Shown: positions 1 to 16,392 of the stretch, one piece after another | Numbering within the stretch: position 1 is the first letter of the stretch | How the letters are laid out: each line of letters begins with the position of its first letter | IMG/VR virus record: IMGVR_UViG_2541047751_000017 | Direction: 5' to 3' (one strand) | DNA from: a virus | Taxonomy: Duplodnaviria; Heunggongvirae; Uroviricota; Caudoviricetes | DNA: 16,392 nt | Notes under the pieces: generated by a model | Seen by the model: the letters and a program-made list of their open reading frames with translations, nothing else | Databases searched by the model: none | Told to the model about the DNA's origin: nothing | Made by a program: the position numbers and the translations under genes

Positions 1-615
1 GTGAGCAGAAAAGATACTAAAGAATTGCTAACTATCTGCATGGTGTACTTTTCAATTTATTTTTGTGCATACATGATAGTCCCAGATGAGTTTGAACATG
101 GCAGTATTATTTATTCCATAACATTCTATTTTTTAGAGCTAACACCAATTTTGGCTATCCTTTTGGCAATACATATTTATTTTTCCTTAAAAAAAGAATC
201 GACTAATTGGGAGAAGGTATGGAGAGACAGAGGATTTCTAACATCACCTAAAGATGATGCATATGAGAGTGATTTTTCTGACTTTATAACAAACTACTAC
301 TCCAGCGAACAATTCAAAAATAGACTGTCTGATGTTTGGGAAACAGCAATGTATTCCATAGGGATTATATTATTGATACTTACTGGTATTGCTCAATATG
401 TTTTTAACATTGACTTATCATTAAATCCTGAAAATTTAATATCGCCATTGATTTTTGGTGAGATATTGATCTTCTCATTCGGAATTTTCTTGAGTGTTGT
501 TCTCTGCTCATTATGCAAGCTACTGACTAACAGGTATCCAGGTGAAGCAAGGAGAGCAAGAAAGGCAAATCCATATTATCTTTTATTTCCTAATGGAGAC
601 AGCAGAGATATCTAA
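1..615 (+). CDS. Hypothetical inner-membrane protein, 4 predicted TM helices; AT-rich cargo gene, possible superinfection-exclusion or abortive-infection factor
   Basis: 204-codon ORF in visibly AT-rich DNA where stops are frequent. Four hydrophobic segments at roughly residues 9-27, 40-63, 116-135 and 146-175. Track start is GTG at 1; an in-frame ATG at 40 is an alternative. Convergent with the 701-aa gene, 19 bp apart. Confidence 0.6.
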   Translation: MSRKDTKELLTICMVYFSIYFCAYMIVPDEFEHGSIIYSITFYFLELTPILAILLAIHIYFSLKKESTNWEKVWRDRGFLTSPKDDAYESDFSDFITNYYSSEQFKNRLSDVWETAMYSIGIILLILTGIAQYVFNIDLSLNPENLISPLIFGEILIFSFGIFLSVVLCSLCKLLTNRYPGEARRARKANPYYLLFPNGDSRDI

Positions 616-634
616 GCCATCCATGGCTAACCAG

Positions 635-2740
635 TTATTGAGCTTCTTTTTGTGATGCCTGTGCGACTCTGGTGAGCGATTGTGTGACCGTACTGATCGC
701 TCTGTCATATGCTGTGCTACCTTTTGGCGTATTTGCCAGACGTAACAAGGCATTTCGTATAACAGGGCTTTCGTATGCCTTCGCTGCTCCGCCTACGGCA
801 CCAGCAGCAGGAACAACAAACGCAGCCGTTTTTAGCATCCCCGCTAATACTGCTGCGTTTATGATGCCACCACCAACTAACAAACCATAAAGCTGCTGAC
901 CATTTAAGTTTTGAACGTTCGCTTTTGCCGCGTGTCTTGTATCGTTGAGGTATTTAATAACGCCGTCCAGTTCCTTTCCATGTACGCCTTTAAAGAAAGT
1001 TGCTGATTGCTTCCTGTTCCGGTGTAACGCATTAATAAACTTCTCAACACTGATATTTCCAGACGGATCAGTCGCCTTATCTACAGCATTCTGAACTATG
1101 GCTGCTCGTGCGTTTTGCCTACCATTGTCATCCAGAAGCCTGTAAAGCTGAGAACGTTCTGATGGGTTTTGGCTAAAAACGAGTTTTGTTACATCCTCAG
1201 GCGTGGCCTTGCCGCTGGCTATTGCCTTTTGAACGCGCGTTCTTCCCATCATGTCATTAAATTTAGACCATGAGCGATCAACCCTTGCCATATTAATGGC
1301 TTCGTCTGCTCCAAGATTTTTGGCTACGGCTTTTTTCATATCCGCCGTATATGCCTTGTAGATAATATCGCTGGCTTTCTGGAGCGTATCTTTATCAACA
1401 GTGTCAGATGACGCCATAAATCGCTTTCGAAGATCGGTTCTGTTTTCCCTCGCCAGACGCAGGTCATTTGGTCCGCTGGTGATATCGTCTTTAAATTGCT
1501 GCAAGACTTTTACCGCGGCTCTATCCTGAGATTTGCCCGGGCGGCTTAACACGGCAATCTGATTGTCGATAGCTTTTACCGTGTTTGAGAGATCGACAGG
1601 GGTATCCCCCATAGCGTCAATTATGCGGTTATATCGCTTTCCTGCTGCCTCAATGAATTTTTGTTGCCCTTTAGTCGCAGATTCATAAAGCTGTTTATCA
1701 GAAATGCCACCCAGACCATCGCTAAATGTTCTGACTAAATTTTCTCGTGCTTGTTGTTGATTCAGCCGATTCTTACCGGTTCCAAAAAAAGGAACTCTTT
1801 CGCCTAATGTCTGAGCCTGACTCTGCATAAAGGTTTTATCTTTTAGCATGTCACTGGTCATTAACGGCAGATTTCTTTCCGATGCAAAGTCGACAGCAGC
1901 CTTTGCTTCAGGCGACATATCACCACGAACAGCCCTCGAAACCGCACTCGCTGTATTTTCCAGCCCCTTACCAATACCACCAATGCCAGCAGAAATTACC
2001 GTTTGTAACGGATCAATATCTTCTCCACCAGCAAGGCTAGTGGCTCCCTGTAGTGCTAAATCTGTAGCTGCTGATTTTCCTATGGCACCAAGCACCGTTC
2101 CAGCCCTGCCCGCTGGTGTAAACGCCAGCGCATTAGCCAGAAACGATGCCACGTCTTGCGGCGATAAACCCGGCTTGTTCAGAGCATAATCACCGGATGG
2201 CAGGGAAACGATAGTGTTACCCTTCTCATCCTGCCTTAATTTCGCTCCCATGCTCTGAAGAATCTTTTCCTGAGATGCGTCAGAGCCGAAAAGTTGAGAC
2301 CATCGAGCTTTTAGAGCATCCATGCTGAGTGAGGTTAACTCTGGGGCAAGGTCGACATTTTGCAGTCTCTCCATCTCTGGAGTCATTCGGCTTTCGCCTG
2401 TTATAGCATCGCGCATCGCAGCCCCAAGACTGGCTCCCTGTTCTGCTGAACGCTCAAGCCCCTCTCTTTGCTGAGTAGCTAACTTTGCATACCCTGACGC
2501 AAGAGAATTATCAGATGATGTATGTTGAATATTTTGAGTTGCTGATTGGGATCGGTCTATTTCATTCGTTGATGGTAGTGGATAGGCAGCATAAAAAGCC
2601 TGCTTAGCCTGCTCTACACTTTCTCCGGCTTGCGAGGCCACGACTTCATTGAAGTATTGCTCCTGAGCCTGCGCTTTTTGTTCTGGTGCTAACGCCTGAT
2701 ACTGTGGAGAGGCGATAACATCTTTCCATGCTTTAGCCAT
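635..2740 (-). CDS. Putative phage ejection/DNA-transfer protein, P22 gp16-like by position and size
   Basis: 701-aa ORF, last gene of a coupled operon; start overlaps the stop of the 473-aa gene by 1 nt (TAATG). Ala/Gln-rich with a Gly/Ala-rich hydrophobic C-terminal segment (LVGGGIINAAVLAGMLKTAAFVVPAAGAVGGAA). Family assignment is from size, order and composition only. Confidence 0.5.
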   Translation of the reverse strand: MAKAWKDVIASPQYQALAPEQKAQAQEQYFNEVVASQAGESVEQAKQAFYAAYPLPSTNEIDRSQSATQNIQHTSSDNSLASGYAKLATQQREGLERSAEQGASLGAAMRDAITGESRMTPEMERLQNVDLAPELTSLSMDALKARWSQLFGSDASQEKILQSMGAKLRQDEKGNTIVSLPSGDYALNKPGLSPQDVASFLANALAFTPAGRAGTVLGAIGKSAATDLALQGATSLAGGEDIDPLQTVISAGIGGIGKGLENTASAVSRAVRGDMSPEAKAAVDFASERNLPLMTSDMLKDKTFMQSQAQTLGERVPFFGTGKNRLNQQQARENLVRTFSDGLGGISDKQLYESATKGQQKFIEAAGKRYNRIIDAMGDTPVDLSNTVKAIDNQIAVLSRPGKSQDRAAVKVLQQFKDDITSGPNDLRLARENRTDLRKRFMASSDTVDKDTLQKASDIIYKAYTADMKKAVAKNLGADEAINMARVDRSWSKFNDMMGRTRVQKAIASGKATPEDVTKLVFSQNPSERSQLYRLLDDNGRQNARAAIVQNAVDKATDPSGNISVEKFINALHRNRKQSATFFKGVHGKELDGVIKYLNDTRHAAKANVQNLNGQQLYGLLVGGGIINAAVLAGMLKTAAFVVPAAGAVGGAAKAYESPVIRNALLRLANTPKGSTAYDRAISTVTQSLTRVAQASQKEAQ

Positions 2741-4161
2741 TAATCACCCCATAGTGAAGAAAAGTTACTGCTGGCTGCTGGCTGTGATACCTGCTCAGAT
2801 TGCGGCAATGTCTGCGACGAAGAAGAAGTTCCTCTGTCAACTGCTGAAATAACCCGCAAAGCATCATAAGCTCGACCAGAAGCAGCTTTCAGCGAATTGA
2901 ACTGGTTTTCCATCTTCCGGCGCTTGGTATCAATGGTTTTTGTGGAGTCGCCAGGCTGAGGGAAATACATTTGATAATATTTTGACATTTCAGCAGGTAC
3001 GATGGCTGCCCCTGTTTCCTGACGGAGTATTGCCATTATTGCGTCATTAGCATTAACAACGTATTGCTGTTCTGTTGGGCTGAGCGTTAAGTTAGCCAGC
3101 GTCCCATTACCCAAAGCATTATTAATGATCGCCACTCGCTGTGGGCTAAGCTGGTCTTTCAGTGTATCTATTGAATCAAGAGCATCCCTAACCCTGTATG
3201 CAAATCCAGCAGCTTTTTTAGCCCCTTCTGGCGACTTTTCCATGATCTTTTGGGCTGTTGGCAAAGCTATTGGACGAAACCCATCTCCAGATATTGGCTG
3301 GTTTAGTTTTCCCTGCTCTTCACTTCCGTCTGTGTAGTATTTTGTGACAGTGCCATCATCGTTTTCTCTAACACTCATTAATTTTTTGGCGTTTGTATTA
3401 ATTCCAGCCGCTGCCGCAAATGCCGCCGCCCCCTCTGGATCCGCCTTTAACATTTGAGCGTACTGATTGTAATTCTGCATTGCTGCTGTTGGTGCATATG
3501 CTGACGTTAACGCATTTGCTCGGCTAATATCCTGCCCTCTCGCCTGAAGTGCTTCGCCAGCCTGATTGCTGCGGATTGTTTCTGCCAACTTGCCACGCTC
3601 AATATCCCGACCTTCCATTTGATCTTTGATATCGAAATACTTCTCATGACCGAGAGAAAACAGTGCCATACTACCAGCAAGCCGCTGGAACCCCTGTGGA
3701 TCATTAACATGCATTTCGGCAACAGACTCAGGAGAAATTCCCAAGCGACGCATTTCATCTTCGTTATCTGCTATGAATTTTCCAAATGCCCCAGTTCCGA
3801 GCGAAGATGCGATTTGAGCACTAGTCGCAAGATGACCAATAGAATTTCTCTGGTCGTCATCAATAAAGCCCATCCCTTTCTGAACGCTTTCAAATTCTTC
3901 TGGATACTCAGAAATAAGACTGCGCATTTTGTTTCTGTCTCCAGACTCAAAAGCCCCGGCATATGCTTTCTGAAACTCTGCTTTACGCTGTTGTTGACGT
4001 GCCTGCTGATTAATCTCAGCAACGCCTCTTAGCCCCTGTAGCGCCATTAAACCTACGTTTGGCTGCTGCTGATACTGCACAGGCTGAGGAACGGAAGAAC
4101 GAGGAGCATTATCATTTTGCGGTGCCATGCTAGGCAGCCCGCCAAGTTGCCATGTCGCCAT
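2740..4161 (-). CDS. Putative phage ejection/DNA-transfer protein, P22 gp20-like by position and size
   Basis: 473-aa ORF (P22 gp20 is about 471 aa, recalled from memory). 1-nt start/stop overlaps with both neighbours. Gln/Ala-rich, no recognisable catalytic motif. Confidence 0.5.
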   Translation of the reverse strand: MATWQLGGLPSMAPQNDNAPRSSVPQPVQYQQQPNVGLMALQGLRGVAEINQQARQQQRKAEFQKAYAGAFESGDRNKMRSLISEYPEEFESVQKGMGFIDDDQRNSIGHLATSAQIASSLGTGAFGKFIADNEDEMRRLGISPESVAEMHVNDPQGFQRLAGSMALFSLGHEKYFDIKDQMEGRDIERGKLAETIRSNQAGEALQARGQDISRANALTSAYAPTAAMQNYNQYAQMLKADPEGAAAFAAAAGINTNAKKLMSVRENDDGTVTKYYTDGSEEQGKLNQPISGDGFRPIALPTAQKIMEKSPEGAKKAAGFAYRVRDALDSIDTLKDQLSPQRVAIINNALGNGTLANLTLSPTEQQYVVNANDAIMAILRQETGAAIVPAEMSKYYQMYFPQPGDSTKTIDTKRRKMENQFNSLKAASGRAYDALRVISAVDRGTSSSSQTLPQSEQVSQPAASSNFSSLWGD

Positions 4162-4838
4162 TAGAATCCAAGCCCCCCAACAAGACCAATAAGCCCACCA
4201 CCAATAGCGCCGGCCGCAGTTCCTATTCCAGGAACAACGGAACCAAGTTGCGCACCCGCTAAAGCGCCTGATGCTGCCCCACCAATACCACGCGCAAGAC
4301 TGGATGGCTGCTGCGCCTGACCTGCACGAATAGCGCCAAGCCCCTGCAAGAGTTGTCCGGTATTATTGGCGTAGTTTTGCCCTGCCGTTGCCTGCCCTGA
4401 TGCCGCATTCATCCCGACATTTAGCAGGTTTCCATAATTTTGCATTTGCCCACTGAGCCAATTGTTATAAAGCATGGGCGCAATGGAAGATAACTGGTTA
4501 CTGGTAGCTGTTGAGCCAAGCCCCCCGGTAGCTTCTGCTGAGACAAGGTTCTGATAACGGGCCTGATCTGCCTGTGTTTTATATAAACCAGAACCAAAGA
4601 AATCATTCGCGGCTTTATTCTGCCCTTCCAGAGTCATCAGTCCTTGTAGTTGTTGTAAAGCAGGCAATCCGACTTCTGCATACGGCTTGAGATTATTCAT
4701 CACCGTATTCCACTGCTCGCGCTGCAAATCAATTGCCTGCTGCTGGGCCTTCGCCTGAGCTTTAGAGGCACCACCATCACCGCCTTTTTCGTATACGGCA
4801 CGATTGAGATGTTTATGAGCTATGTGGGTAATTAACAT
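4161..4838 (-). CDS. Putative phage ejection/DNA-transfer protein, P22 gp7-like by position and size
   Basis: 225-aa ORF (P22 gp7 is about 229 aa, recalled). N-terminal YEKGGDGGAS motif, Gln/Ala-rich centre, Gly-rich hydrophobic C-terminus (GIGTAAGAIGGGLIGLVGGLGF). Overlaps the upstream 153-aa gene by 7 nt. Confidence 0.5.
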   Translation of the reverse strand: MLITHIAHKHLNRAVYEKGGDGGASKAQAKAQQQAIDLQREQWNTVMNNLKPYAEVGLPALQQLQGLMTLEGQNKAANDFFGSGLYKTQADQARYQNLVSAEATGGLGSTATSNQLSSIAPMLYNNWLSGQMQNYGNLLNVGMNAASGQATAGQNYANNTGQLLQGLGAIRAGQAQQPSSLARGIGGAASGALAGAQLGSVVPGIGTAAGAIGGGLIGLVGGLGF

Positions 4839-5293
4839 TCGCTGAATTCCTTATATTGTTGCCGAGTTAACTGATAAAGCGTTACGCCGACGGGTTTACC
4901 ACATCTGATATAAGCATCATCAAGGTGACCAACACGGGTAGCGCCAAGCAAACGGATAATTGCCCGTCCGTATTTCGTGGTGTCAGGAACCATAGTAATG
5001 CTGTTAAGGAATGGTGAGTTTTCGAGAAGCCATTTGCAGAATAATCGATGCCCTTGCAGTGCATATTCACCACGGAATCCGGGGTCGTACACCGCATGGC
5101 ATTCAACAACGCTATGCCAGAAGTTACGCACTTCATGAACGCCAGCCAGCACTAATCCTTCGTAGATGCCGAGATATACCGCATCAGGCTTGATGTAGTA
5201 CGTGTGCCCCGGCTCAACAATATTTTCGGTATTGCCTGGCTCGTTAAGAAAGGCCTGTAATCGCACAGGGTTATCAATAAATTTTAGTTCCAT
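4832..5293 (-). CDS. Hypothetical protein, first large gene of the ejection-protein-like operon (P22 gene-14 position)
   Basis: 153-aa ORF with ATG start at 5293, protein-like composition, co-oriented and overlapping the next gene. Confidence 0.55.
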   Translation of the reverse strand: MELKFIDNPVRLQAFLNEPGNTENIVEPGHTYYIKPDAVYLGIYEGLVLAGVHEVRNFWHSVVECHAVYDPGFRGEYALQGHRLFCKWLLENSPFLNSITMVPDTTKYGRAIIRLLGATRVGHLDDAYIRCGKPVGVTLYQLTRQQYKEFSEC

Positions 5294-6055: not shown

Positions 6056-8815
6056 TCATTCTTCAGATGAGTTATAATCTCCTGGCTGGTAATTGAGTAC
6101 ATAAACGTTTATTTGTCGTCCCTGAATACGTGGTGATTTTCTTTGGTATCCACGACCGCTGTTTGGTGGGGTTAGCATCCCGGCTTTTTTCAACACTTCA
6201 GCAAACTGTTTTGCGTTGAAACCACATGCGATCTCCTTTTCAAATGTGGCCGGGAATGTGTAGAAAATCATTGGGCTTTCGTCATGTTCTCCACGCTGAC
6301 GGTATCCGGCTAAATCTTTGATGGGCAAATCTGCCGGGCTGTATGGAAATGGTGCAAAACGGCTAAGCCCATAGGCATTAAGAAATGCCTCCGTTTGTTC
6401 AATAATCTGCTGATGCTCTTTGTTACCTGTGCCGAACTCACGCAACCATGCGTTATAGCTGTGCTGTATCGCATCACGGCATGTCTGAGCATCCCAGCCT
6501 GTTACAACCTCGCCTAACAACAATGCGGCCTCCAGAATGGCAAATCGCGCGGCTACACGGTGAACCTGCTCACCATAATCGGATGGGATCAGGCTTCTCC
6601 ATCTGCTTTCGCAATCACGAACGGTTTTAATAGCCTGTTGCTGGTGGTCTGCCAGCCATTTAATCCACTCACGCCCGGACGCGCCGTGGTGATGCTGGTA
6701 AGCGTCTTTCAGTGCGTCTGCGTGCTGTTTTCCGTTCTGGTAATCGTGAAAGCGTACTGCTTTACTCAACGGAATATTCAGCAGTCGCACCAGTTGCCCG
6801 GCTTTGGTTTTTCGCCCGGAAGTAGCGATAAATGTTTCTAAATCCATTTCTCCGGTGCTGATTGCCACTGTACGCCAACGTTTTAGATCCCGGTTTCCAC
6901 CATCTTTAGCGCCTTGCAGTTTCCCTACACCGTTAAATAACGCATAGGCAGACTGTGAAACGCTGACAGGATCAGCGCCCTGACCAACTTCATCAAGCGG
7001 CATTAGTCCGTCATTGTGGGCGGCGGCCTCATTTGCCAGCCCCAGCGCGGTTCCGTACCACGTCAGCCGCAGTAAATCAGGGTTGCCGTATAAGCTGCTC
7101 GCCACGTTTGCCGTGGTGGTCTTACCTGCGCTCGACTGCTCATAGAAATGAATGCCGAACCCGTCAGCGCCCACCAGCCCAATCAATGGCGCTGCCAGTG
7201 CTGCGCCGATCCCGGTCATCATTGAATAGTTACCAAAGGCCAGACGCGCCACGTTATCACGCCAGCTTTTCGCGCTCCCTGAGACGGTATATCCGGCTGC
7301 GGCTGAGCTTCTCCCGCTGAACAGCACAGGATTTTCAGGTGTTCCGATGATTTCCCCATCAGGCATGATGTACGCTCCGCATTGCCAGCCAGTGGCATGA
7401 GCAACACGCCACAATTCACGAGAGCCACTGCGTTGTAGCCAGTCTGCCAGTATTGCTCTGAGGCTGCTTTTGGTCGTGACATTTACCCCACCAGCTTTAA
7501 GTGTGCGCCATCCTTCACGTTCACCAATATCAGCCAGTGGAATGGCAGCGGTTGTCGGCGTTTCAGAACCAAACGACAGCCAGCGAAGAATGAGATACTG
7601 GTCTTTATCGTCTCTGCCAGTACCGATAACGCTTAACGGAGAACATAACCAGCTTTCGTTATTGATGATTTCTCCACTCTGGCTGTCAGCTCTCGGAGAT
7701 ACCCAATAAATACCATCCTCGCGGCTTTCTATTCTTGGTTTCAGTGGGTCGGTATCCATAACCTTAAAATCGCTTCCCTCAATGGTCTGTGGCTCCTGTT
7801 TCACGCCATTACCCTGTGGTTGGTACATTGACTTATTGAACGCTTCTGTGGCGCATTTAATGCCGTGTTTTTGGTGGTAATCATTCCAGTCTGCTTTGTG
7901 ATCTGTCGGGGGTAATGCCACCCATCCAGAAACAGATAAAGCTGCTTTTTCTGCTGCTATTCTCCCCGTGTTTTGTCTTCCTTCGCTGTGGTCGTTATCC
8001 GCAGCAATGATGATTTGTGCTGAAGGAAATTTATCCCGCAGTACCTGGGCGACATATAACAGGTTCCCGGCATCAATCGCCGCCACTGTCAGCGCCTCTG
8101 GACGAATTAAATGGGCAGATAATGCCGTTGCCAGCCCTTCTGTAATTAAGATGCTCTGTGTTGTTTCTGGCGCGTTTATGGCGTGATATGCCCCCCGCTT
8201 TGCTGAACCTCTCAGGAGTCTTTTTTCACCATGTGAGGTAATAGTCTGTGCTGCTGTGACTGCGCCGGATTTATCCACCAGCGCCAGCAACAGAGATCCA
8301 TCGGGCAACACGGGGAATGTAAAATCACCTACCCCTTTCGCAACCAGATAATCAGATTTGCCGTTTACAGCCTTTCTGCGCATGTCATCAAACTGACGGG
8401 AAAACGTATCCCGTCTTTGTTGTTCGTCCTTCTCTGCCCTTTTCAGGCGCTCCTGTTCGCGTCGCTGGCGCTCGGTTTCCAGTTGTTCCCGTTTCTGGCT
8501 GGTGGCTTCTGGTGTTTCCGTTGTCCGGTAATCAATACCCAGAACATCAGCGGCAAGAAGCGCCGCCTCTGTTGTGTCGCAGTTATTTACGCGTTTAATT
8601 AAATCCAGCCCATCACCAGCGCCGCACTGATTACAGATGAAGCTACCGCGCCCGTTGTCATCGAACCGGAATCGATCTTTGCCCCCACATGCAGGGCAGG
8701 GAGCATGACGGCGCGGAGAGTCAGGGACATTTATGTTCAGGCAGCCCAGCACATGAGGCCAGTTGTTTTCAGACGCACTGATAACCTGACGGATAAGATC
8801 AATGTTTCGCATCAC
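6056..8815 (-). CDS. Primase-helicase, P4 alpha-like (zinc ribbon, TOPRIM-type primase domain, P-loop NTPase domain)
   Basis: 919-aa ORF. N-terminal CPACGG...CNQCG zinc-binding motif, ITEGLATA (EGYATA-like) and AADNDH TOPRIM-type motifs, Walker A SSAGKTT, charged coiled-coil linker (ERQRREQERLKRAEKDEQQRRD). Track start is GTG at 8815; ATG at 8812 is an alternative. Confidence 0.85.
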   Translation of the reverse strand: MMRNIDLIRQVISASENNWPHVLGCLNINVPDSPRRHAPCPACGGKDRFRFDDNGRGSFICNQCGAGDGLDLIKRVNNCDTTEAALLAADVLGIDYRTTETPEATSQKREQLETERQRREQERLKRAEKDEQQRRDTFSRQFDDMRRKAVNGKSDYLVAKGVGDFTFPVLPDGSLLLALVDKSGAVTAAQTITSHGEKRLLRGSAKRGAYHAINAPETTQSILITEGLATALSAHLIRPEALTVAAIDAGNLLYVAQVLRDKFPSAQIIIAADNDHSEGRQNTGRIAAEKAALSVSGWVALPPTDHKADWNDYHQKHGIKCATEAFNKSMYQPQGNGVKQEPQTIEGSDFKVMDTDPLKPRIESREDGIYWVSPRADSQSGEIINNESWLCSPLSVIGTGRDDKDQYLILRWLSFGSETPTTAAIPLADIGEREGWRTLKAGGVNVTTKSSLRAILADWLQRSGSRELWRVAHATGWQCGAYIMPDGEIIGTPENPVLFSGRSSAAAGYTVSGSAKSWRDNVARLAFGNYSMMTGIGAALAAPLIGLVGADGFGIHFYEQSSAGKTTTANVASSLYGNPDLLRLTWYGTALGLANEAAAHNDGLMPLDEVGQGADPVSVSQSAYALFNGVGKLQGAKDGGNRDLKRWRTVAISTGEMDLETFIATSGRKTKAGQLVRLLNIPLSKAVRFHDYQNGKQHADALKDAYQHHHGASGREWIKWLADHQQQAIKTVRDCESRWRSLIPSDYGEQVHRVAARFAILEAALLLGEVVTGWDAQTCRDAIQHSYNAWLREFGTGNKEHQQIIEQTEAFLNAYGLSRFAPFPYSPADLPIKDLAGYRQRGEHDESPMIFYTFPATFEKEIACGFNAKQFAEVLKKAGMLTPPNSGRGYQRKSPRIQGRQINVYVLNYQPGDYNSSEE

Positions 8816-10993: not shown

Positions 10994-11842
10994 GTGCCAC
11001 CTCCATGCGGATACGACCAGCAAAAAAGCAGACGTGATCGCGCACCAGAGAACGGCGAGCATCGCGTTCAGACTCGGCAGCAATATGATGAATTTTGGCG
11101 GTAATTGTCGGGCAATCGCGGCGAACTGCGGCGATAATCCAGATAAATTGCGGTTTTTGGGTAGGGGTAGTAGCCAGCATGTGGCAGCCTCCATTCGATA
11201 GCATGTAACGCTACCACCGGAAACGCCAATTTCGCTGGTGGTAGCCCAGACAGGGTTGGCGTAACCGGCTCGAATGGATACCGGCGCTTCCGAAGAAGCC
11301 CCTGCCTGAGCCACCATTGATTGACAAAGGCGCTGGATTATACACCAACGCCCAAAAAATGGGTGAGTCAGACCTACGACATAAAAAAAGACGCTCGGCG
11401 CGTCATATGTCGCCATTCGATTTACCAGGACGCCAATCCCGGCACCCGTTTTATGAGGTGCCTTATAACCATAAACCGTGTTGCCGCATAACGGCAAGCT
11501 CTTTTTTATGGACTCCGAAAACTCACTATTGGAAGAACCAGAAGCACAGTACATCGCGCTCATTTCGTTAACGTCACGCGCGTGGACGAAGGTTTTTGTG
11601 GAGTCACTACGCGAGCAGAGAAAGCCATCTACGACCAGAAATTCTCTGGCGCAGCCGCTGACCTTCTCAACGCTAACACCATCGACCGTAATTTCTGACA
11701 TAGTTAAGGCATCCGCTCCTACCACCAGCAAATGATAAACTTTGCTTGTATCTGCTGTATTAATGCCTGACTTTGCCGTCATATTGCTGGATTTTGGCGA
11801 CATACCAGCCAGTGAAAATGTCTTCTTCTGGGCGGTTAGCAT
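10775..11842 (-). CDS. Alternative long form: 355-codon open frame from a strongly initiated ATG at 11842; possibly a fused or frameshifted gene
   Basis: ATG at 11842 has GGAGG at 7 nt and overlaps the stop of the upstream 60-aa gene. The frame stays open for 355 codons, but residues encoded between about 11000 and 11250 are Trp/Cys-rich and not protein-like. Confidence 0.25.
11208..11245. promoter_or_regulatory. Inverted repeat GCTACCACC / GGTGGTAGC with 18-nt spacer, possible RNA stem-loop or operator
   Basis: Perfect 9-bp arms at 11210-11218 and 11237-11245; no adjacent U-run, so not a classical terminator. Confidence 0.25.
11481..11508 (+). terminator. Plus-strand terminator-like hairpin, antisense to the main operon
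   Basis: Stem TTGCCG (11481-11486) / CGGCAA (11492-11497), 5-nt loop, 4-nt spacer, then T6 (11503-11508). A TTGACA hexamer sits at 11321-11326 without a well-spaced -10. Confidence 0.25.
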
Positions 11843-12018
11843 TTGTTAACCTCCGCGAACTCCTTCATGAAACGTGCCAGCGGTTGTACGCATGGCGATT
11901 GATACCCGTCGCGATAAAACGTCACTCGGTTGTGAGACACGCTTTCGACAGTAACGAGTGCTCCGTGGGCATCTTTGTAGCGTTTTTGAGGTTGTGGTGT
12001 TCCTGTCGGCTTAAACAT
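11836..12018 (-). CDS. Hypothetical small protein (60 aa from the ATG overlapping the antirepressor stop)
   Basis: ATG at 12018 overlaps the stop of the 277-aa gene (ATGTTTAA arrangement). The track ORF extends upstream to 12105, but that extension overlaps the preceding gene. Confidence 0.45.
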   Translation of the reverse strand: MFKPTGTPQPQKRYKDAHGALVTVESVSHNRVTFYRDGYQSPCVQPLARFMKEFAEVNKC

Positions 12019-12844
12019 GGACCGCCTCCAGACGCTTGGCGAGCCAGCGTTGCGACAGGCGGGTGAGTTCTCCTTTACGCTGCTCATATTCCATGCCCAT
12101 ATCAATTAACGTGATATTGGTGCTTTCGAGATATGAGAGGTGCTCAAGCTGTTCTGCGTTCATATGGTCGCGAGGTTCGCCAGAATAGCCATTTATCCGC
12201 GCCCACTGCTTAGCAGTTAGCCCACCAAGAACGATACGAGAAATCATATTGCTCTCGTTTGTGTAGTGGTGTTGCTGCGTCGTTTTACCCATCTCGGCAC
12301 GGGCCATATTCAGCGCATCGCACATTGGCTTAAAGTTGTTTGCGGCACTGATACGGGCTTTTAGCTGGCGACGATAGCGGGCGGCGATTTCAGGCACGCT
12401 ACGCTGTAATTCTTCCTCGCACTGGATGAAATAACGGCGGATAGCGCGCCCCTGATCATTGCGTTCGATCATTGCCAGTTCTTTCGCCATTCCGACACTT
12501 AACAGATAGTCTTTGCCGGGTCTGCCAGACTGCTTAATCTTGCTGTAAGCCGCGTCATTCGGGCTTTTCCCCAAATTTGGGGAAATTGTTTTATGGACTG
12601 AGTAATCGTGCCCAATGGTGAAGTCATATTCAGAGATGCGATCAGTGATCCATGTAGAGAAGTCTTTTCCCACGCCCAACGCTTTGTGTAACGCTTTTGC
12701 GCTAACAATATTGGTTTCACGCCCACCGATATGACCAGGAATAACCGGGACAATTGCGGCAAATTCATTACCGTTAATTGTGCCCAGAGAGGCGTTCAGA
12801 TGAGGGGCGGCCTCAGAAATTAATCTGCTTTTTTCGATGTTCAT
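12011..12844 (-). CDS. Phage antirepressor-like protein, AntA/AntB N-terminal domain type
   Basis: 277-aa ORF; GGAG RBS 8 nt upstream. N-terminal segments SAKALHKALGVGKDFSTWITDRISEYDFTIGHDY and DYLLSVGMAKELAMIERNDQGRAIRRYFIQCEEEL match, from memory, the conserved AntA-domain pattern of phage antirepressors. Confidence 0.65.
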   Translation of the reverse strand: MNIEKSRLISEAAPHLNASLGTINGNEFAAIVPVIPGHIGGRETNIVSAKALHKALGVGKDFSTWITDRISEYDFTIGHDYSVHKTISPNLGKSPNDAAYSKIKQSGRPGKDYLLSVGMAKELAMIERNDQGRAIRRYFIQCEEELQRSVPEIAARYRRQLKARISAANNFKPMCDALNMARAEMGKTTQQHHYTNESNMISRIVLGGLTAKQWARINGYSGEPRDHMNAEQLEHLSYLESTNITLIDMGMEYEQRKGELTRLSQRWLAKRLEAVHV

Positions 12845-12856
12845 TTTCAGTCTCCG

Positions 12857-13288
12857 TTAGGCGGCGTTAAACGCGTTCGGGTAGAGTTTCAGAATGTCGG
12901 CAATTTCCTGCTGAGAAAGTCCGTTGTGATCATTTATGTTCGCAAGATGGTTAACATGAGTGATCACTTTCAGAACATCACCACGGCAGGAGAAACGGTA
13001 GCGAAGGTGTGTTCCGATACCATCAGGATTCTTTTCGTCGATACGCTCCAGAGTGATTCCAAGCTGGCGTTCTAACTCTGTTGCATAGTTACGACCAGAA
13101 GACAGACGGCAGTAGCGAAGAATGTCATTTTCTGTCCATCCCTCTATACCAGTACGCAGCATATAGACTCTGGCACGATGCTTTTTCGGTGTGCGCTTTG
13201 GTGCTTGAAGGGATTTTGTAAGGGGCGTAACATCAGATACGCGAATATCTGAATTAGCCGCCTGTAATGGGCGGTTTTTCTTTTCCAT
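12857..13288 (-). CDS. Hypothetical protein (143 aa), basic N-terminus, coupled to alpA
   Basis: ATG at 13288 overlaps the alpA stop by 1 nt (TGATG); AAGGTGG RBS at 4 nt. Lys/Arg-rich N-terminal third. No family recognised. Confidence 0.6.
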   Translation of the reverse strand: MEKKNRPLQAANSDIRVSDVTPLTKSLQAPKRTPKKHRARVYMLRTGIEGWTENDILRYCRLSSGRNYATELERQLGITLERIDEKNPDGIGTHLRYRFSCRGDVLKVITHVNHLANINDHNGLSQQEIADILKLYPNAFNAA

Positions 13289-13506
13289 CAGGCCACCTTC
13301 CCGCGGCGTTCTGCCAGCCAGTTATTAATTTCCACCGCATCAAACGCAGTCACGTTATCTGTTAGCTTCACTGGGCGTGGAAGAGTGCCATTTTTAACCC
13401 ATCTATCAATAGTAGGCAGTGAAACACCTAGCAATTCCGGCATGCGAAAGCGACGGATGTATCCAGTTGTTGGGATAGCTGATGATGCTGGCTTGTGTGC
13501 TGTCAT
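13288..13506 (-). CDS. alpA: AlpA-family phage transcriptional regulator/excisionase-like protein
   Basis: Motif RMPELLGVSLPTIDRWVKNGTLPRPVKL is the canonical AlpA helix-turn-helix signature. Start placed at ATG 13506 (72 aa, GGAG RBS at 9 nt); the track ORF extends to 13575 without RBS support. Confidence 0.8.
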   Translation of the reverse strand: MTAHKPASSAIPTTGYIRRFRMPELLGVSLPTIDRWVKNGTLPRPVKLTDNVTAFDAVEINNWLAERRGKVA

Positions 13507-13574
13507 ATGTTCTGTAACTCCTGTGATAGCTGTTGAAGTTACGGTAATCATGTGAGCAGGGGGATTAGATGTCA

Positions 13575-13603
13575 TCGCAACGAAAAATGGATTTTCGTTG
13601 CGA
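13575..13603. promoter_or_regulatory. Perfect 12-bp inverted repeat with 5-bp spacer, putative operator in the alpA promoter region
   Basis: TCGCAACGAAAA-atgga-TTTTCGTTGCGA at 13575-13603, in the 105-bp gap between the 293-aa gene stop and alpA. No U-run follows the stem on either strand. Confidence 0.4.
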
Positions 13604-13611
13604 AATTATCT

Positions 13612-14493
13612 TTATGATTTAAAAGATTTGTTAGCTGATGAGAAATATTCATCCAGTAAGCGGGAGCTTAATTTTAAACCCCTATCCAGCATTTCTGCTT
13701 TGAGGGCTTCTTGTGTCCACCTTTTAGAAGTTGGTTCGGCTTTCTTTAAAGCGTTGAGCACCGCGCCAAGCAGTAAAAGGCTTTCATCGAGGTTCAGGAG
13801 ACTGTTGTTATCACTGAGTGTTTTCTTTTCAAATTCTGCAATATTTTCTTTTCTGAATACGAACTCGACATTACCCAGCCCATCAGCAGGATAGAAAAAG
13901 GGATGATAACCATCGAGGCTAAAGTCAACAAACCTCTGTGATTCTTTGTCGTACAGTTTAGGTTTGCCATTTTCATCTGACTTGATGGCATATTCATTGA
14001 ACGCGTTCAGAATATTCACCAGACCAAATTCTGTTAAGAGGAAAGCACCTTCCATGTTGTGAAATTCACGGGGAACCTTGTCGCGTGAAAGGTCAAACTC
14101 GTGCATAACATCTAAAGATTCAGCCCCAACCATCGGTAGATCGTATATGCCATGATTAATACGAAAAACATCACTGACTCTTTCTATATCTTCGTATTCA
14201 TAATCCAATTGTTCATTAGTATAGAATTCATCACCGGCAGGAGTTCTAATTACCGCACCTTCGTTAGTATTTTCAACAATCCACTTTTCAAAAACTCTTC
14301 GTTGCGAGTTTTTGATGACTTGAGCAGCGATAGCGTAACGGCCTTCGTCCAATATCGCTGAAATTGTAATGTGGCCTTCTACAGCCAATTGCAGGCAATC
14401 GGCTACAGATACCCTTTCACCGAGTGTTGTGCTTAACCTGTTTGCGGTTTCCTCTATGGTCAACCAACTTTTGAACTGGAACAATTTGCTCAT
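13612..14493 (-). CDS. Hypothetical protein (293 aa), AT-rich cargo gene between int and alpA; candidate accessory or defence gene
   Basis: Long ORF in DNA visibly more AT-rich than its neighbours. Acidic, soluble-looking protein with no TM segment and no recognisable catalytic motif. Confidence 0.7.
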   Translation of the reverse strand: MSKLFQFKSWLTIEETANRLSTTLGERVSVADCLQLAVEGHITISAILDEGRYAIAAQVIKNSQRRVFEKWIVENTNEGAVIRTPAGDEFYTNEQLDYEYEDIERVSDVFRINHGIYDLPMVGAESLDVMHEFDLSRDKVPREFHNMEGAFLLTEFGLVNILNAFNEYAIKSDENGKPKLYDKESQRFVDFSLDGYHPFFYPADGLGNVEFVFRKENIAEFEKKTLSDNNSLLNLDESLLLLGAVLNALKKAEPTSKRWTQEALKAEMLDRGLKLSSRLLDEYFSSANKSFKS

Positions 14494-14586
14494 AGCGTAA
14501 CCTTTCGCGCTGCCTTAAAGAGTGACCGGAACAGGCGGTAAGGCTTTCCGCTTTTCGCCCCGTCGGGCTAGTTCCGGTCTGTTCGG

Positions 14587-15846
14587 TTACTTTGCCTTTC
14601 TGATAGGCGTCACGTTGTAATCTTCGCCCTTCTCCAGAGCCACCAGCAAGCCCGCCCACTGTGTTAACGCAGCCCGGCGCTCGTCAAAGTATTGGTGACG
14701 GTTATAGATACCCTCAACGCCTTTTATGCGGTGATTGAGGCATCTTTCAGCCACTACCGGATCAACGCCCAGCGCTGCTAAATGAGTACGTGCGGTGCGT
14801 CGGAAGTCGTGAATCGTGAAATTAGGCACATCCGGCATTTCGGCGCGAACCTTAGCCAGTGCTACGGGTAAAGTGCTTTCCTGAATATGTGGAATCATTC
14901 TGTTTTGCATCTTCCTGGCCGGAAGCACCCATGCGCTATTACATGAAAAGGTGTGTAGCTCTCTCAACCATTCAACGGCTGGGGAAGGTAGAGGTATATC
15001 AATAGGGTCTCCGTTTTTGCTGCGTTCTTCCGGCAAATGCCATACCGCACCATCTAAATCAAACTCTTCCCATCGTGCGGCGCATAACTCCATCTTACGA
15101 ACGCATAGTGCCAGCAATAGCTTAAATGTCAGTTCGTTTTGGCGGCTGAATCCTTTTGCGGTGCGCATAGCCTCGAATAGCCTGATAAGCTCATCGCGAG
15201 TTAGCCAACGGTCGCGGGAAACCTCTTTACCACCAGCATCAGATACTTCAAACGCTGAACAAGGGTTTATCTCCAGAGCGTGGCGTTTTATCCCATAGTC
15301 AAAGATACGGCGTGTCCAGCGTAATACATCTGTTGCTATCGTTGGTGCTCCTCGGTCAACGATACCTTTCAACATGTCGTCAATGTGGCGTGGCTTAACG
15401 TCCTCTACCTTCATATGCCCAATGCAGGGGTTAATATCCTTATCAATTCTCCGGCGAAGGATATCGGGATGTTTCCATCTCGGAAGTATCTGTCGCTCGA
15501 AGTATTCGGCGGCCAGATCTGAAACGCGCATGGCGTTTTTCTCAGCCTCCATTTTTGCCAGTGCTTCAGCTTTTCGTTCCTGTTTTTCTGCTGCTACGTC
15601 ATAGCCAAGAGCAACTCTGGCTGACAGCTCTTTTGCTGTTTCTCTGGCTTTTGATAGTGACAGTTCGGAGTAAGAGCCGATAACCATAGCCCGCTGTTTT
15701 CCTGCGAGCTTATATCGGAATCGCCAGAACGGGACTGTGTAGTTTTTGGGGTAGCAAATATAAAGGCCGTTGCCGTCTGCCTTGCCATCAAATCTGTCTC
15801 CCGCCTTTATCCATGCGCGGATCTGCATATCTGTGAGTTTTGGCAT
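14587..15846 (-). CDS. int: Tyrosine-type site-specific integrase, P4-like (N-terminal arm-binding domain plus catalytic domain)
   Basis: N-terminus LTDMQIRAW...DGNGLYICY...WRFRYKLAGKQRAMVIGSY fits the P4-type integrase N-domain pattern. C-terminus carries HDFRRT (H-x-x-R) and GIYNRHQY (tyrosine nucleophile region). Start placed at ATG 15846 (MPKL...); the track ORF begins 28 codons upstream. Confidence 0.9.
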   Translation of the reverse strand: MPKLTDMQIRAWIKAGDRFDGKADGNGLYICYPKNYTVPFWRFRYKLAGKQRAMVIGSYSELSLSKARETAKELSARVALGYDVAAEKQERKAEALAKMEAEKNAMRVSDLAAEYFERQILPRWKHPDILRRRIDKDINPCIGHMKVEDVKPRHIDDMLKGIVDRGAPTIATDVLRWTRRIFDYGIKRHALEINPCSAFEVSDAGGKEVSRDRWLTRDELIRLFEAMRTAKGFSRQNELTFKLLLALCVRKMELCAARWEEFDLDGAVWHLPEERSKNGDPIDIPLPSPAVEWLRELHTFSCNSAWVLPARKMQNRMIPHIQESTLPVALAKVRAEMPDVPNFTIHDFRRTARTHLAALGVDPVVAERCLNHRIKGVEGIYNRHQYFDERRAALTQWAGLLVALEKGEDYNVTPIRKAK

Positions 15847-15875
15847 TGCGAATACCTGAATATCGAATATGGGTG

Positions 15876-15926
15876 TGTACATAAAGCAATGTACATGAAA
15901 GTCATTATGTACACCTCTATGTACAC
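15876..15926. repeat. Four direct copies of TGTACA(Y) upstream of int; putative integrase arm sites or int operators
   Basis: TGTACAT at 15876 and 15890, TGTACAC at 15909 and 15920, all in the same orientation within 50 bp just upstream of the int start. Confidence 0.4.
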
Positions 15927-15971
15927 GCATATTGTGCGCTTTGTTGCGTCGTTATGATAGCTCATGATAAC

Positions 15972-16008: not shown

Positions 16009-16080
16009 GCTGCTTGGTGATTTTTACTGATAGCTTATTCGATATTCTGAATCAGAAACAGCAGTGCATTCACTCCATGG

Positions 16081-16392
16081 GTGTCTGTTGGACTGGGTTA
16101 TGCACGGATACATCATAAGGCAACATATACTGATACCTCCTGGAATAAATCTGGTGAGGTGAGCGATATTTCTGCGTTGCATTACTCGGGATATGATAAC
16201 AATTTCGCATGGAGCATTGGGGCCGGTGTTCGCTATGACATAACCCCGGATATCGCTCTTGACCTCAGCTATCGCTATCTGGATGCTGGTAAATCCTCCC
16301 TGTCTTACAAGGATGCAGAAGGGGATAAATATAAATCAGAGGCTGACGTTAAAAGTCATGACATCATGTTTGGTGTGACTTATAACTTCTGA
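16081..16392 (+). pseudogene. 5'-truncated outer-membrane beta-barrel protein gene, Ail/Lom/OmpX/PagC family (C-terminal about 100 codons)
   Basis: Ends with a beta-barrel terminus (...IMFGVTYNF, terminal Phe) and alternating aromatic strands (YDITPDIALDLSYRY). An in-frame TGA at 16048 and absence of signal peptide or RBS upstream show the N-terminal part is missing. Confidence 0.6.

What the first reader, a model, noticed from the sequence alone, without database searches (positions are those of the whole stretch)
13612..14493. AT-rich orphan gene in the int-alpA slot: candidate single-gene anti-phage or accessory system
The 293-aa gene lies between integrase and alpA and is visibly more AT-rich than both. 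The int-proximal slot of P4-like and PICI-like satellites is a known hotspot for variable defence cargo. The protein shows no recognisable motif, so it may be an uncharacterised family.
Basis: partly seen in the sequence, partly recalled or inferred. Interest (0 to 1): 0.6.

Follow-up and report, generated by a model that had tools for sequence, protein, structure and literature searches.

The report
Variable AlpA-linked gene in phage satellite
The gene is real and sits in a swap-prone slot of a phage satellite, but it is not an orphan: it belongs to a very large uncharacterised family that always sits just upstream of the satellite's master switch gene alpA, often behind a known structured RNA, so it may control or sense rather than defend.

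Summary
Window 13612-14493 (- strand) is an intact 293-aa gene between a P4-type integrase and alpA. Its GC is 0.41 against 0.49-0.50 for both neighbours, and no Pfam, NCBIfam, PHROGs or PADLOC model matches it.

"Orphan" is wrong. A profile search finds 2,222 relatives (50%-identity clusters).

The island is an EcCIMP1-like satellite (PICI). E. coli islands with about 96-99% identical flanks carry at least six different genes in this slot. Across 40 species there are at least 20 sequence clusters, and none matches a known defence family.

New anatomy:
- The int-X spacer is the Rfam RNA motif RF02996 "int-alpA" (66 bits).
- The motif ends 15-20 nt before the start codon of unrelated slot genes.
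- Allele swapping begins exactly at the ATG and ends about 50 nt before alpA.
- X-family genes lie directly upstream of an AlpA-type gene in 64 of 67 metagenomic loci. They stay next to it when restriction genes or 5 kb separate them from the integrase.

The AF2 model (pLDDT 88) has an N-terminal excisionase/AlpA-like winged helix, a beta-rich middle with no structural match, and a helical tail.

Best reading (about 0.35): a resident-state DNA-binding gate or sensor of the int-alpA switch, analogous to SaPI Stl. Defence cargo remains possible (about 0.25). Nothing is experimentally tested.

The parts
13612..14493 (-). Gene X. It encodes a 293-aa protein with three parts: an N-terminal winged helix (about residues 8-50), a beta-rich middle (about 50-228) and a C-terminal three-helix tail (235-292).
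14512..14578 (-). Structured RNA motif RF02996 ('int-alpA RNA'). It fills the int-X spacer and ends 18 nt before the X start codon, so it is the probable 5' leader of the slot gene.
   Evidence: Rfam match of 66.1 bits against a gathering score of 35.8, E 3.7e-13. The outer stem keeps pairing through compensatory changes between alleles: CCGGAAC/GTTCCGG against TTGAGCC/GGCTCAA. The same motif lies 15-20 nt before the ATG of X-family and unrelated slot genes in other loci.
14587..15930 (-). P4-type tyrosine integrase. This is the longest ORF, 447 aa. The RefSeq equivalent is 419 aa and would start near 15846.
   Evidence: Pfam Arm-DNA-bind_3, Phage_int_M and Phage_integrase. RefSeq annotation of near-identical islands.
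13575..13603 (.). Perfect 12-bp inverted repeat (TCGCAACGAAAA-N5-TTTTCGTTGCGA). It starts 8 nt after the X stop codon and ends 68 nt before the alpA ATG. On the coding strand no T-run follows it. It is a candidate operator, roadblock or 3' stabiliser that belongs to the X cassette.
   Evidence: It occurs with X-family alleles regardless of the alpA allele, and is missing from a non-X allele that has the same alpA. Perfect palindromes of >=9 bp occur in 7 of 60 X-alpA spacers, against 0.3 expected.
13514..13545 (-). alpA-proximal segment conserved in all slot alleles. It carries the GTAAC...GTTAC inverted repeat over the alpA ribosome-binding site and marks the right-hand end of the swapped cassette.
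   Evidence: DNA alignment of six slot alleles: homology resumes about 45-50 nt upstream of the alpA ATG.
13288..13506 (-). alpA, 72 aa. It encodes the AlpA-family regulator, which is the master activator of Gram-negative PICIs.
   Evidence: Pfam PF05930. RefSeq CDS. Its role in PICIs is described in PMC6092414 and PMC11773190.
12857..13288 (-). PM1773-family gene, 143 aa, directly after alpA. It was used as the anchor for the cross-species survey of the slot.
   Evidence: RefSeq name. 40 loci fetched.

Best explanation
Gene X is one allele of a dedicated single-gene slot in the control region of EcCIMP1-like satellites and other P4-integrase islands. The order is int, the RF02996 RNA leader, the slot gene, then alpA.

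Shown:
- The gene is intact and under purifying selection.
- Its protein has an N-terminal excisionase/AlpA/MerR-type winged helix, a conserved beta-rich middle domain with no structural match, and a variable helical tail.
- Its family is huge and is directly followed by a small same-strand gene, in most cases detectably AlpA-type.
- The swapped cassette runs from the slot gene's ATG to about 50 nt before the alpA ATG. It therefore includes the upstream half of the alpA control region and, here, a 12-bp palindrome.

Inferred:
- X is made in the resident, uninduced island, co-transcribed with int and translated from the RF02996 leader.
- It binds DNA through its winged helix in the X-alpA spacer.
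- It gates transcription into alpA, and so gates excision and induction. Its middle domain would receive an allele-specific signal such as a helper-phage protein.

Functionally this would be a Gram-negative counterpart of the SaPI Stl sensor-repressor. Because some islands lack a slot gene, it would be a modulator or specificity gate rather than an essential repressor.
For: - Deep synteny: in 64 of 67 metagenomic X loci with room, a small same-strand ORF follows within 300 nt. Of these, 39 hit Phage_AlpA and 17 hit HTH_17.
- The same order is seen in E. coli, Enterobacter, Yersinia, Neptunomonas, Rhodoferax and an unnamed contig.
- When other cargo is present, X is the gene next to alpA. The cargo is type I, MmeI or type ISP restriction genes, or a 5-kb gene block in Rhodoferax, and it lies between int and X.
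- The family is absent from 50,697 phage records and present in 1 of 72,556 plasmid records.
- The N-terminal fold matches Xis, AlpA excisionase, RdfS, TorI, BldC and MerR winged helices. It is the most conserved segment of the family.
- Cassette boundaries are at the ATG and about 50 nt before alpA. The palindrome travels with the X allele, not the alpA allele. Palindromes are enriched at a fixed distance from alpA.
- Alleles are hypervariable in otherwise near-identical islands. N- and C-terminal modules are shared around unrelated middles. This is the pattern of Stl alleles, as described in the introduction of PMC6092414.
- How helper phages switch on alpA in Gram-negative PICIs is stated to be unknown (PMC6092414).
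Against: - No DNA binding, operator or regulatory effect has been shown.
- X is co-oriented with alpA, not divergent as stl is from its target.
- 3 of 40 surveyed islands have an empty slot.
- EcCIMP1 is helper-inducible with only a small gene (about one tenth the size of UvrB) in the slot, and classical EcCICFT073-type PICIs appear to have none.
- X and alpA alleles reassort freely, which argues against a tight X-AlpA protein pair.
- The N-terminal domain is highly conserved while the downstream palindromes differ in sequence. That fits poorly with the winged helix reading those palindromes.
- Only 7 of 60 spacers have a strong palindrome.
- Promoter-like hits in the region are no more frequent than in shuffled sequence.
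Confidence: 0.35

Rival explanations
1. Single-gene anti-phage defence or superinfection-immunity cargo. X would be expressed in the resident island and would block incoming phages, perhaps through DNA binding and the conserved acidic cluster (D118, E125, D128, R214) of the middle domain.
For: - The slot is hypervariable between conserved core genes, and the gene is AT-rich.
- Satellites are known to keep defence genes in such hotspots, and 6 of 8 unknown genes from P4 hotspots protected against phages (PMC13586616).
- EcCIMP1 gives unexplained superinfection immunity with no known defence system (PMC11773190).
- Restriction enzymes lie directly upstream of X in several loci. A McrBC-like pair, identified by eye from the translations, lies upstream in Paraburkholderia.
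- The slot can be empty, so it is dispensable for the island.
Against: - 0 of 41 slot alleles and 0 of 96 family members match PADLOC, apart from two marginal coiled-coil hits. About 73% of P4 satellites have recognisable defence genes in their hotspots.
- The family is practically confined to the position upstream of alpA, and is absent from phages and almost absent from plasmids.
- The slot is size-limited and its occupants share end modules and an RNA leader.
Confidence: 0.25
2. Accessory recombination-directionality or integration factor. An Xis-like N-terminal domain next to int would help Int and AlpA assemble the excisive or integrative complex.
For: - The best structural matches of the N-terminal domain are excisionases: Pukovnik Xis, the GIsul2 AlpA-family excisionase, RdfS, TorI and Tn916 Xis.
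- The gene is often adjacent to the integrase: 25 of 35 large upstream ORFs are P4-type integrases.
- The conserved N-terminus could bind a conserved partner such as Int.
Against: - Islands with about 96-99% identical int and att flanks carry unrelated slot genes, which is unexpected for a cofactor matched to Int and att.
- In Rhodoferax and the restriction-gene loci X stays with alpA, not with int.
- In EcCIMP1, int and alpA were each shown to be required for excision; the slot gene was not tested.
- At 293 aa the protein is far larger than known directionality factors.
Confidence: 0.1
3. Small-terminase-like packaging specificity factor. It would have an N-terminal HTH that recognises island DNA, a middle oligomerisation domain, and a tail that docks to a helper large terminase.
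For: - The packaging mechanism of EcCIMP1-like islands is unknown.
- A variable C-terminal tail could track helper terminases.
Against: - The similarity is only the generic winged-helix fold.
- The gene lies upstream of alpA, outside the induced operon where PICI packaging genes normally sit.
- No PHROGs terminase family matches X.
Confidence: 0.05

Closest known systems
SaPI/PICI master repressor Stl (Rpr) of Gram-positive satellites
   Same: - The gene lies next to int and is transcribed in the same direction as int.
- The size is similar, by my own recollection about 250-290 aa.
- It has an N-terminal DNA-binding fold followed by variable domains.
- Alleles differ radically between otherwise similar islands.
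- It sits at the boundary of the induced operon.
   Different: - There is no sequence or whole-fold similarity.
- The winged helix is of the Xis/MerR type, not, by my own recollection, the HTH type of Stl.
- X is co-oriented with its presumed target alpA rather than divergent from it.
- Some islands lack a slot gene.
- Repression and derepression by a phage protein have not been tested.
Defence hotspots of P4-like and P2-like elements (PMC13586616; Rousset et al. 2022, PMC9122126, cited but not read here)
   Same: - It is a variable locus flanked by conserved core genes in a satellite.
- Alleles are exchanged between near-identical elements.
- Unknown genes at such loci often prove to be defensive.
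   Different: - No recognisable defence system was found among at least 20 slot clusters.
- The slot holds about 1 kb only.
- Occupants share end modules and often a structured RNA leader.
- The X family is tied to alpA over deep phylogeny.
EcCIMP1 of E. coli MP1 (Pick et al. 2025, PMC11773190)
   Same: The island architecture is the same: int, one gene, alpA, antirepressor, primase, and P22-like DNA-transfer and DUF2824 genes. PerC is annotated in near-identical islands, not in this window. The helper of EcCIMP1 is a temperate phage, vB_EcoP_Kapi1.
   Different: EcCIMP1_002, the gene in the slot, is a small protein about one tenth the size of UvrB and mis-annotated as UvrB. It is not an X homologue. 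The present island sits next to yicC in most E. coli genomes, not at tRNA-Thr.
AlpA/Xis/MerR-type winged-helix proteins (PF05930, PF12728; PDB 8c3t, 4j2n, 8dgl, 1z4h)
   Different: There is no profile similarity: Pfam gives no hit, and hhalign against 64 neighbouring AlpA proteins gives probability 0.2%. X carries about 240 further residues.
Rfam RF02996 int-alpA RNA motif
   Same: The int-X spacer is a full-length, high-scoring member of this family.
   Different: Rfam lists it as a candidate sRNA. The library search found no functional study of it. Here it lies 15-20 nt before the start codon of a hypervariable gene, which points to a cis-acting leader.
YfjH of cryptic prophage CP4-57 (E. 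coli K-12)
   Same: It is an uncharacterised protein of 318 aa that occupies the position between intA and alpA.
   Different: It is on the opposite strand, divergent from alpA. It shows no detectable homology (hhalign probability 0.2%). No RF02996 motif is found there.

Membership tests
Known anti-phage defence families (PADLOC-DB 2.0) | Significant match to a defence-system HMM | tested here: not met
   No hit for X. None for 41 slot alleles or 96 family members, apart from one marginal JetC coiled-coil hit in each set (E about 5-8e-4).
Known anti-phage defence families (PADLOC-DB 2.0) | Location in a variable hotspot bounded by conserved mobile-element core genes | tested here: met
   At least six alleles occur between about 96-99% identical int and alpA flanks in E. 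coli. At least 20 clusters occur in 40 species.
Known anti-phage defence families (PADLOC-DB 2.0) | Protection against phage infection when expressed | not testable with these tools
   This needs cloning and phage challenge.
PICI master repressor (Stl/Rpr-like) | N-terminal DNA-binding domain | tested here: inconclusive
PICI master repressor (Stl/Rpr-like) | Adjacent to int, same direction as int, divergent from the regulated operon | tested here: not met
   X is adjacent to int and co-directional with it, but also co-directional with alpA.
PICI master repressor (Stl/Rpr-like) | Allelic hypervariability among closely related islands | tested here: met
PICI master repressor (Stl/Rpr-like) | Cognate operator between the repressor gene and its target, and derepression by a helper-phage protein | tested here: inconclusive
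   An allele-linked 12-bp palindrome lies in the X-alpA spacer, and palindromes are enriched there, 7 of 60 against 0.3 expected. Binding and derepression cannot be tested here.
AlpA / HTH_17 excisionase-regulator family (PF05930, PF12728) | Pfam HMM match | tested here: not met
   No hit at E<=0.1. hhalign against 64 AlpA neighbours gives probability 0.2%.
AlpA / HTH_17 excisionase-regulator family (PF05930, PF12728) | Winged-helix fold of about 50-70 residues | tested here: met
BrxR/CapW-type WYL regulators of defence islands | wHTH-WYL-WCX architecture | tested here: not met
Rfam RF02996 int-alpA RNA (the upstream element) | Covariance-model score above the curated gathering score | tested here: met
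   66.1 bits against 35.8, full-length match 1-71 of 71.
EcCIMP1-like PICI (the host element) | int, alpA and primase core, no capsid or lysis genes, DNA-transfer and DUF2824 genes after the primase | tested here: met
   Pfam for int, AlpA, AntA, Ash and Toprim/DUF927. RefSeq annotation of 98.5%-identical islands. Description of EcCIMP1.
EcCIMP1-like PICI (the host element) | Helper-phage-dependent excision and transfer | not testable with these tools
   This was shown only for EcCIMP1 itself (PMC11773190).

The most novel reading that the evidence does not exclude
RF02996 leader, slot gene and alpA form a conserved three-part switch of P4-integrase islands. In it, the hypervariable slot proteins (the X family and its modular relatives) would be the missing helper-phage sensors of Gram-negative satellites. 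Each allele would couple a common DNA- or partner-binding N-terminus to a different phage-recognition domain. This would also give the orphan Rfam motif RF02996 a function, as the cis-acting leader of that sensor gene.
Probability: 0.2. Interest if true: 0.85.

Novelty: new variant of a known kind. Interest (0 to 1): 0.62.

Why it matters
How helper phages switch on alpA, and with it Gram-negative PICIs, is described as unknown in the founding paper (PMC6092414). This work points to a concrete, testable candidate. It is a very large uncharacterised protein family: 2,222 clusters, no Pfam model, and a middle domain with no match in the PDB or BFVD. It sits directly upstream of alpA, and the first half of the alpA control region is swapped together with it.

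The work also gives a genomic role to an orphan Rfam motif. RF02996 ends 15-20 nt before the start codon of many unrelated slot genes, so it behaves as a shared leader of a gene cassette.

If instead the slot genes turn out to be defensive, the slot would be a source of at least 20 new small anti-phage genes, none of them related to catalogued systems. One group of them ends in a copy of the SSB C-terminal tail.

Tried and rejected
- Sequence libraries (Pfam, NCBIfam, PHROGs, PADLOC): no hit for X. None for 96 family members in Pfam or PADLOC.
- PDB by sequence profile: nothing.
- Foldseek against PDB and BFVD: nothing significant. AFDB50 was not available.
- Direct HMM search of the X domains against other slot alleles: only weak hits. 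Profile-profile comparison gave modest support: N-terminus E 2.5e-4, C-tail E 6e-5. The C-tail result is partly circular because P0052 is in both alignments.
- YfjH of CP4-57 as a homologue: rejected.
- X N-terminus as a sequence homologue of AlpA: rejected.
- The spacer hairpin as an intrinsic terminator: rejected for this allele, because no T-run follows it on the coding strand. The F374 and AH25 alleles do appear, by eye, to have a hairpin followed by a T-run.
- The C4 or IsrK RNAs of the island as antisense regulators of the X or alpA leaders: no complementarity above shuffled controls, z no lower than -1.3.
- Remnants of slot genes or of RF02996 in 'empty-slot' islands: none.
- Literature: no paper mentions the protein accessions, and none gives a function for RF02996.
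- An integron-like, site-specific cassette mechanism was considered. Homologous recombination in the conserved flanks is simpler and fits the boundaries at the ATG and before alpA.
Full report
**1. Observation**

The ORF at 13612..14493 (- strand, ATG start, 293 aa) is present exactly as described.
- It lies 93 nt downstream of a P4-type tyrosine integrase (14587..15930; Arm-DNA-bind_3, Phage_int_M and Phage_integrase domains).
- It lies 105 nt upstream of an AlpA-family gene (13288..13506; PF05930).
- Its GC content is 0.407 (GC3 0.39). The integrase has 0.490, alpA 0.498 and the whole island 0.482.
- Pfam, PADLOC, PHROGs and NCBIfam give no hit.
- The gene is real. RefSeq annotates the identical CDS as a hypothetical protein (WP_001705540.1) in E. 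coli. Against a 95%-identical copy in Enterobacter sichuanensis, dN/dS is 0.14.

**2. The element**

The window is 98.5% identical over 16 kb to chromosomal islands of E. coli that lie next to yicC. The gene order is: int, X, alpA, a PM1773-family gene, an AntA antirepressor, DUF4222, an ash/icd region, small genes, a Toprim-DUF927 primase, and then a DUF2824 gene, a hypothetical gene, a 'phage DNA ejection protein' and an 'injection protein'.

This is the architecture of EcCIMP1. That satellite is induced and transferred by the temperate phage vB_EcoP_Kapi1. Its alpA is helper-induced and required for excision. It gives unexplained superinfection immunity, and no known defence system was found in it (PMC11773190). 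In EcCIMP1 the gene between int and alpA is a small, unrelated protein about one tenth the size of UvrB.

**3. The slot is hypervariable**

A 3-kb query spanning PM1773 to int matches 652 E. coli genomes. Most of them match in two pieces that skip the slot.

Islands whose flanks are about 96-99% identical to the window carry different genes here:

| Slot gene | Length | E. coli genomes (of 5,426) |
|---|---|---|
| Target | 293 aa | 24 (includes the three E7-type copies) |
| E7 type (60%-identical homologue of the target) | 293 aa | within the 24 above |
| 042 type | 281 aa | 38 |
| F374 type | 321 aa | 77 |
| AH25 type | 316 aa | 41 |
| 99-3165 type | 216 aa | 112 |

A survey anchored on the PM1773-family gene, with one genome per species, returned 40 loci from many enterobacterial genera.
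- Nearly all have int, then a slot of 0.8-1.6 kb, then alpA, then PM1773. Two unrelated integrase types occur.
- The slot ORFs fall into at least 20 BLAST clusters.
- Three loci have an empty slot.

None of 41 slot alleles matches a PADLOC model. The only Pfam family found is DUF6387, in six alleles.

The occupants are size-limited: one gene of about 200-350 aa, or two of about 100-150 aa. They are also mosaic. Unrelated middles are flanked by shared N-terminal segments (about 30-60 aa) and C-terminal segments (about 80-120 aa).

Profile-profile comparison gives modest support for homology of these end modules with those of X:
- N-terminus: E 2.5e-4, probability 43%.
- C-tail: E 6e-5, probability 65%. 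This result is partly circular.

**4. X is not an orphan**

The word-indexed search found 54 clusters in Enterobacterales, down to 39% identity. An exhaustive profile search of 1.84 billion representatives found 2,222 proteins at E<=1e-3, 1,550 at E<=1e-10 and 415 at E<=1e-30. Most matches are full-length proteins of 270-480 aa.

All named members are 'hypothetical'. None of 96 diverse members hits Pfam or PADLOC, and a profile of them finds nothing in the PDB.

Nearly invariant residues are:
- K3, L4, K8, W10, L20, E26, D32 and S45 in the N-terminal domain.
- G115, D118, L119, G123, E125 and D128, in the motif GVWDLPMIGxExLDVEH.
- G149.
- P202, L206, V212 and R214, in the motif YYPAGGLPxDSVLVVRT.

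The N-terminal 50 residues are the most conserved segment.

**5. Structure**

AlphaFold2 on the 41-sequence alignment gives mean pLDDT 88.3.
- The AlphaFold-database library was unavailable.

**6. Conserved neighbourhood of the family**

- In Enterobacter, Yersinia and an unnamed contig the order is int, X, AlpA gene. In a marine Neptunomonas (25% identity to X) it is int, X, then a 77-aa gene with no Pfam hit in the AlpA position.
- In Rhodoferax, X sits directly before an AlpA gene while the integrase is 5 kb away.
- Of 80 metagenomic loci, 78 have an intact X ORF and 67 of those have room downstream. In 64 of the 67 a small same-strand ORF follows within 300 nt. Of these, 39 match Phage_AlpA and 17 match HTH_17, and the consensus has the AlpA signature.
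- Of 35 large upstream ORFs, 25 are P4-type integrases. At least five are restriction enzymes (type I R, MmeI-like, type ISP). Extra cargo therefore sits between int and X, and X remains next to alpA.
- The family is absent from 50,697 phage records. It occurs in one plasmid record, a 1.9-Mb Paraburkholderia replicon. There it follows two ORFs that, read by eye from their translations, resemble a McrB/McrC pair.

**7. A known RNA motif is the leader of the slot gene**

The int-X spacer is a full-length member of Rfam RF02996, 'int-alpA RNA' (window 14512..14578; 66.1 bits against a gathering score of 35.8). Rfam lists it as a candidate sRNA. A search of the paper library found no functional study.

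The spacer is conserved between islands with different slot genes right up to the slot gene's ATG. Its outer stem keeps pairing through compensatory changes.

Where the motif was and was not found at the Rfam gathering score:

| Set of loci | Motif present |
|---|---|
| Yersinia, Neptunomonas, Rhodoferax (X family; far from int in Rhodoferax) | yes, ends 16-20 nt before the ATG |
| Two unrelated slot families | yes, close upstream of the slot gene |
| 11 further loci of other slot clusters, including the two-gene type | 8 of 11 (15-20 nt before the ATG in the six with a clear start codon) |
| 60 metagenomic X loci | 17 directly upstream of X, ending mostly 15-25 nt before its start; an 18th locus (L090) has two copies, each before another gene |
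| Three empty-slot islands | none |
| One contig with int, a 69-aa gene, X and AlpA | none |
| CP4-57 | none |

The motif therefore belongs to the slot gene. Its fixed distance from the start codon suggests a cis-acting leader.

**8. Right-hand boundary**

Homology between alleles resumes only about 45-50 nt upstream of the alpA ATG, at a conserved GTAAC...GTTAC repeat over the ribosome-binding site. The swapped cassette therefore contains the slot CDS plus the distal part of the alpA upstream region.

In the window this part holds a perfect 12-bp palindrome (13575-13603) that starts 8 nt after the X stop codon. No T-run follows it on the coding strand.
- The palindrome accompanies X-family alleles whichever alpA allele follows.
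- It is missing from a non-X allele with the same alpA as the window.
- Across 60 non-redundant X-alpA spacers, perfect palindromes of >=9 bp occur in 7, against 0.3 expected. Six of the seven lie 50-68 nt before the alpA start.
- Read by eye, the F374 and AH25 alleles instead have a hairpin followed by a T-run, like an intrinsic terminator.

**9. Interpretation**

The following are shown:
- X is a constrained gene.
- Its family is huge and AlpA-linked.
- The slot is hypervariable but architecturally fixed.
- A shared RNA leader precedes many of the slot genes.
- The cassette includes part of the alpA upstream region.
- The protein has a winged-helix N-terminus.

From these I infer, at about 0.35, that X is a resident-state DNA-binding gate or sensor of the int-alpA switch. 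That would be a functional analogue of SaPI Stl, and a modulator rather than an essential repressor. How helper phages induce alpA is an open question (PMC6092414).

Evidence against this reading:
- X is co-oriented with alpA.
- Some islands have an empty slot, and EcCIMP1 is inducible with an unrelated small gene there.
- X and alpA alleles reassort.
- The conserved N-terminus contrasts with variable palindromes.
- There are no functional data.

The defence reading (about 0.25) keeps its positional prior. In P4 hotspots, 6 of 8 unknown genes were defensive, and restriction genes are neighbours of X. It is weakened by three things: the total absence of known systems among at least 20 slot clusters, the family's restriction to the alpA-proximal position, and the lack of any effector-like fold.

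A role as an excision cofactor (about 0.1) or as a small-terminase-like factor (about 0.05) rests only on the generic winged-helix similarity.

**10. Verdict**

Against the libraries searched here the family appears undescribed. Its link to alpA and to RF02996 gives a directly testable handle on satellite induction.

Noticed in passing
L015:4759-5079, L026:4649-5098, L050:4708-5028, L020:4524-4901 (variants in L032, L025, L033): In islands where the slot holds two small genes, the first protein ends in ...DFDDDIPF. By my own recollection this is the C-terminal tail of E. coli SSB, the part that recruits many replication and repair proteins. These may be SSB-tail mimics carried by satellites.
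   Followed up: no
window 11234-11321 and 11384-11461 (- strand): Rfam finds a C4 antisense RNA (79.5 bits) and an isrK Hfq-binding RNA (67.1 bits). Both lie inside what a mechanical ORF list shows as a 355-aa 'Ash' ORF. RefSeq annotates this region as an ash pseudogene plus an Icd-like gene. The island therefore carries an RNA-based module that, by my own recollection, resembles phage P1 immI. I tested for complementarity to the X and alpA leaders and found none above chance.
   Followed up: partly
window 635-5293 (- strand): Four genes (153, 225, 473 and 701 aa) after the primase have no NCBIfam or PADLOC hit. In near-identical islands they are annotated as DUF2824, hypothetical, 'phage DNA ejection protein' and 'injection protein' or 'P22-gp16 family'. 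A satellite that carries homologues of its helper's ejection proteins might explain the superinfection immunity reported for EcCIMP1.
   Followed up: no
L090:1485-1553 and 3505-3573: One metagenomic contig has two copies of RF02996, each just before a gene. The order is RNA, 249-aa gene, X, RNA, 286-aa gene. This suggests that leader-plus-gene units can be arrayed in tandem.
   Followed up: no
L022:5175-5798, L035:4026-4546, L041:5057-5798: The 'empty-slot' spacers between int and alpA are AT-rich (GC 0.38-0.42). They hold five or six copies of a GCTCTTTAA-like motif, often next to short hairpins. These could be integrase arm-type or other protein-binding sites.
   Followed up: no
window 12011-12844 (- strand): The C-terminal half of the AntA-family antirepressor matches PDC-S22, a PADLOC candidate defence family (E 4.3e-11, residues 165-266).
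   Followed up: no
window 16043-16392 (+) and 1-615 (+): The right end of the window is the 3' part of tia (invasion outer-membrane protein, 99% identical to the E. coli gene), not yicC as in most carriers. The island therefore abuts another island in the source genome. The left end (1-615, GC 0.33) is a very AT-rich hypothetical gene.
   Followed up: partly
L056:2251-5744 and 7104-7505: In Paraburkholderia phymatum pBPHY01 the X homologue follows two ORFs that, read by eye, resemble a McrB/McrC pair. It is followed by a 133-aa ORF that, read by eye, looks like a winged-helix protein rather than an AlpA gene. This is one of the rare contexts without alpA.
   Followed up: no
L139:4645-5601 (E. 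coli K-12 CP4-57): The original alpA locus also has an uncharacterised gene, yfjH (318 aa), between intA and alpA. It is on the opposite strand, 43 bp from alpA. It is not detectably related to X, although its last 30 residues align weakly with the X tail (E 0.27).
   Followed up: partly
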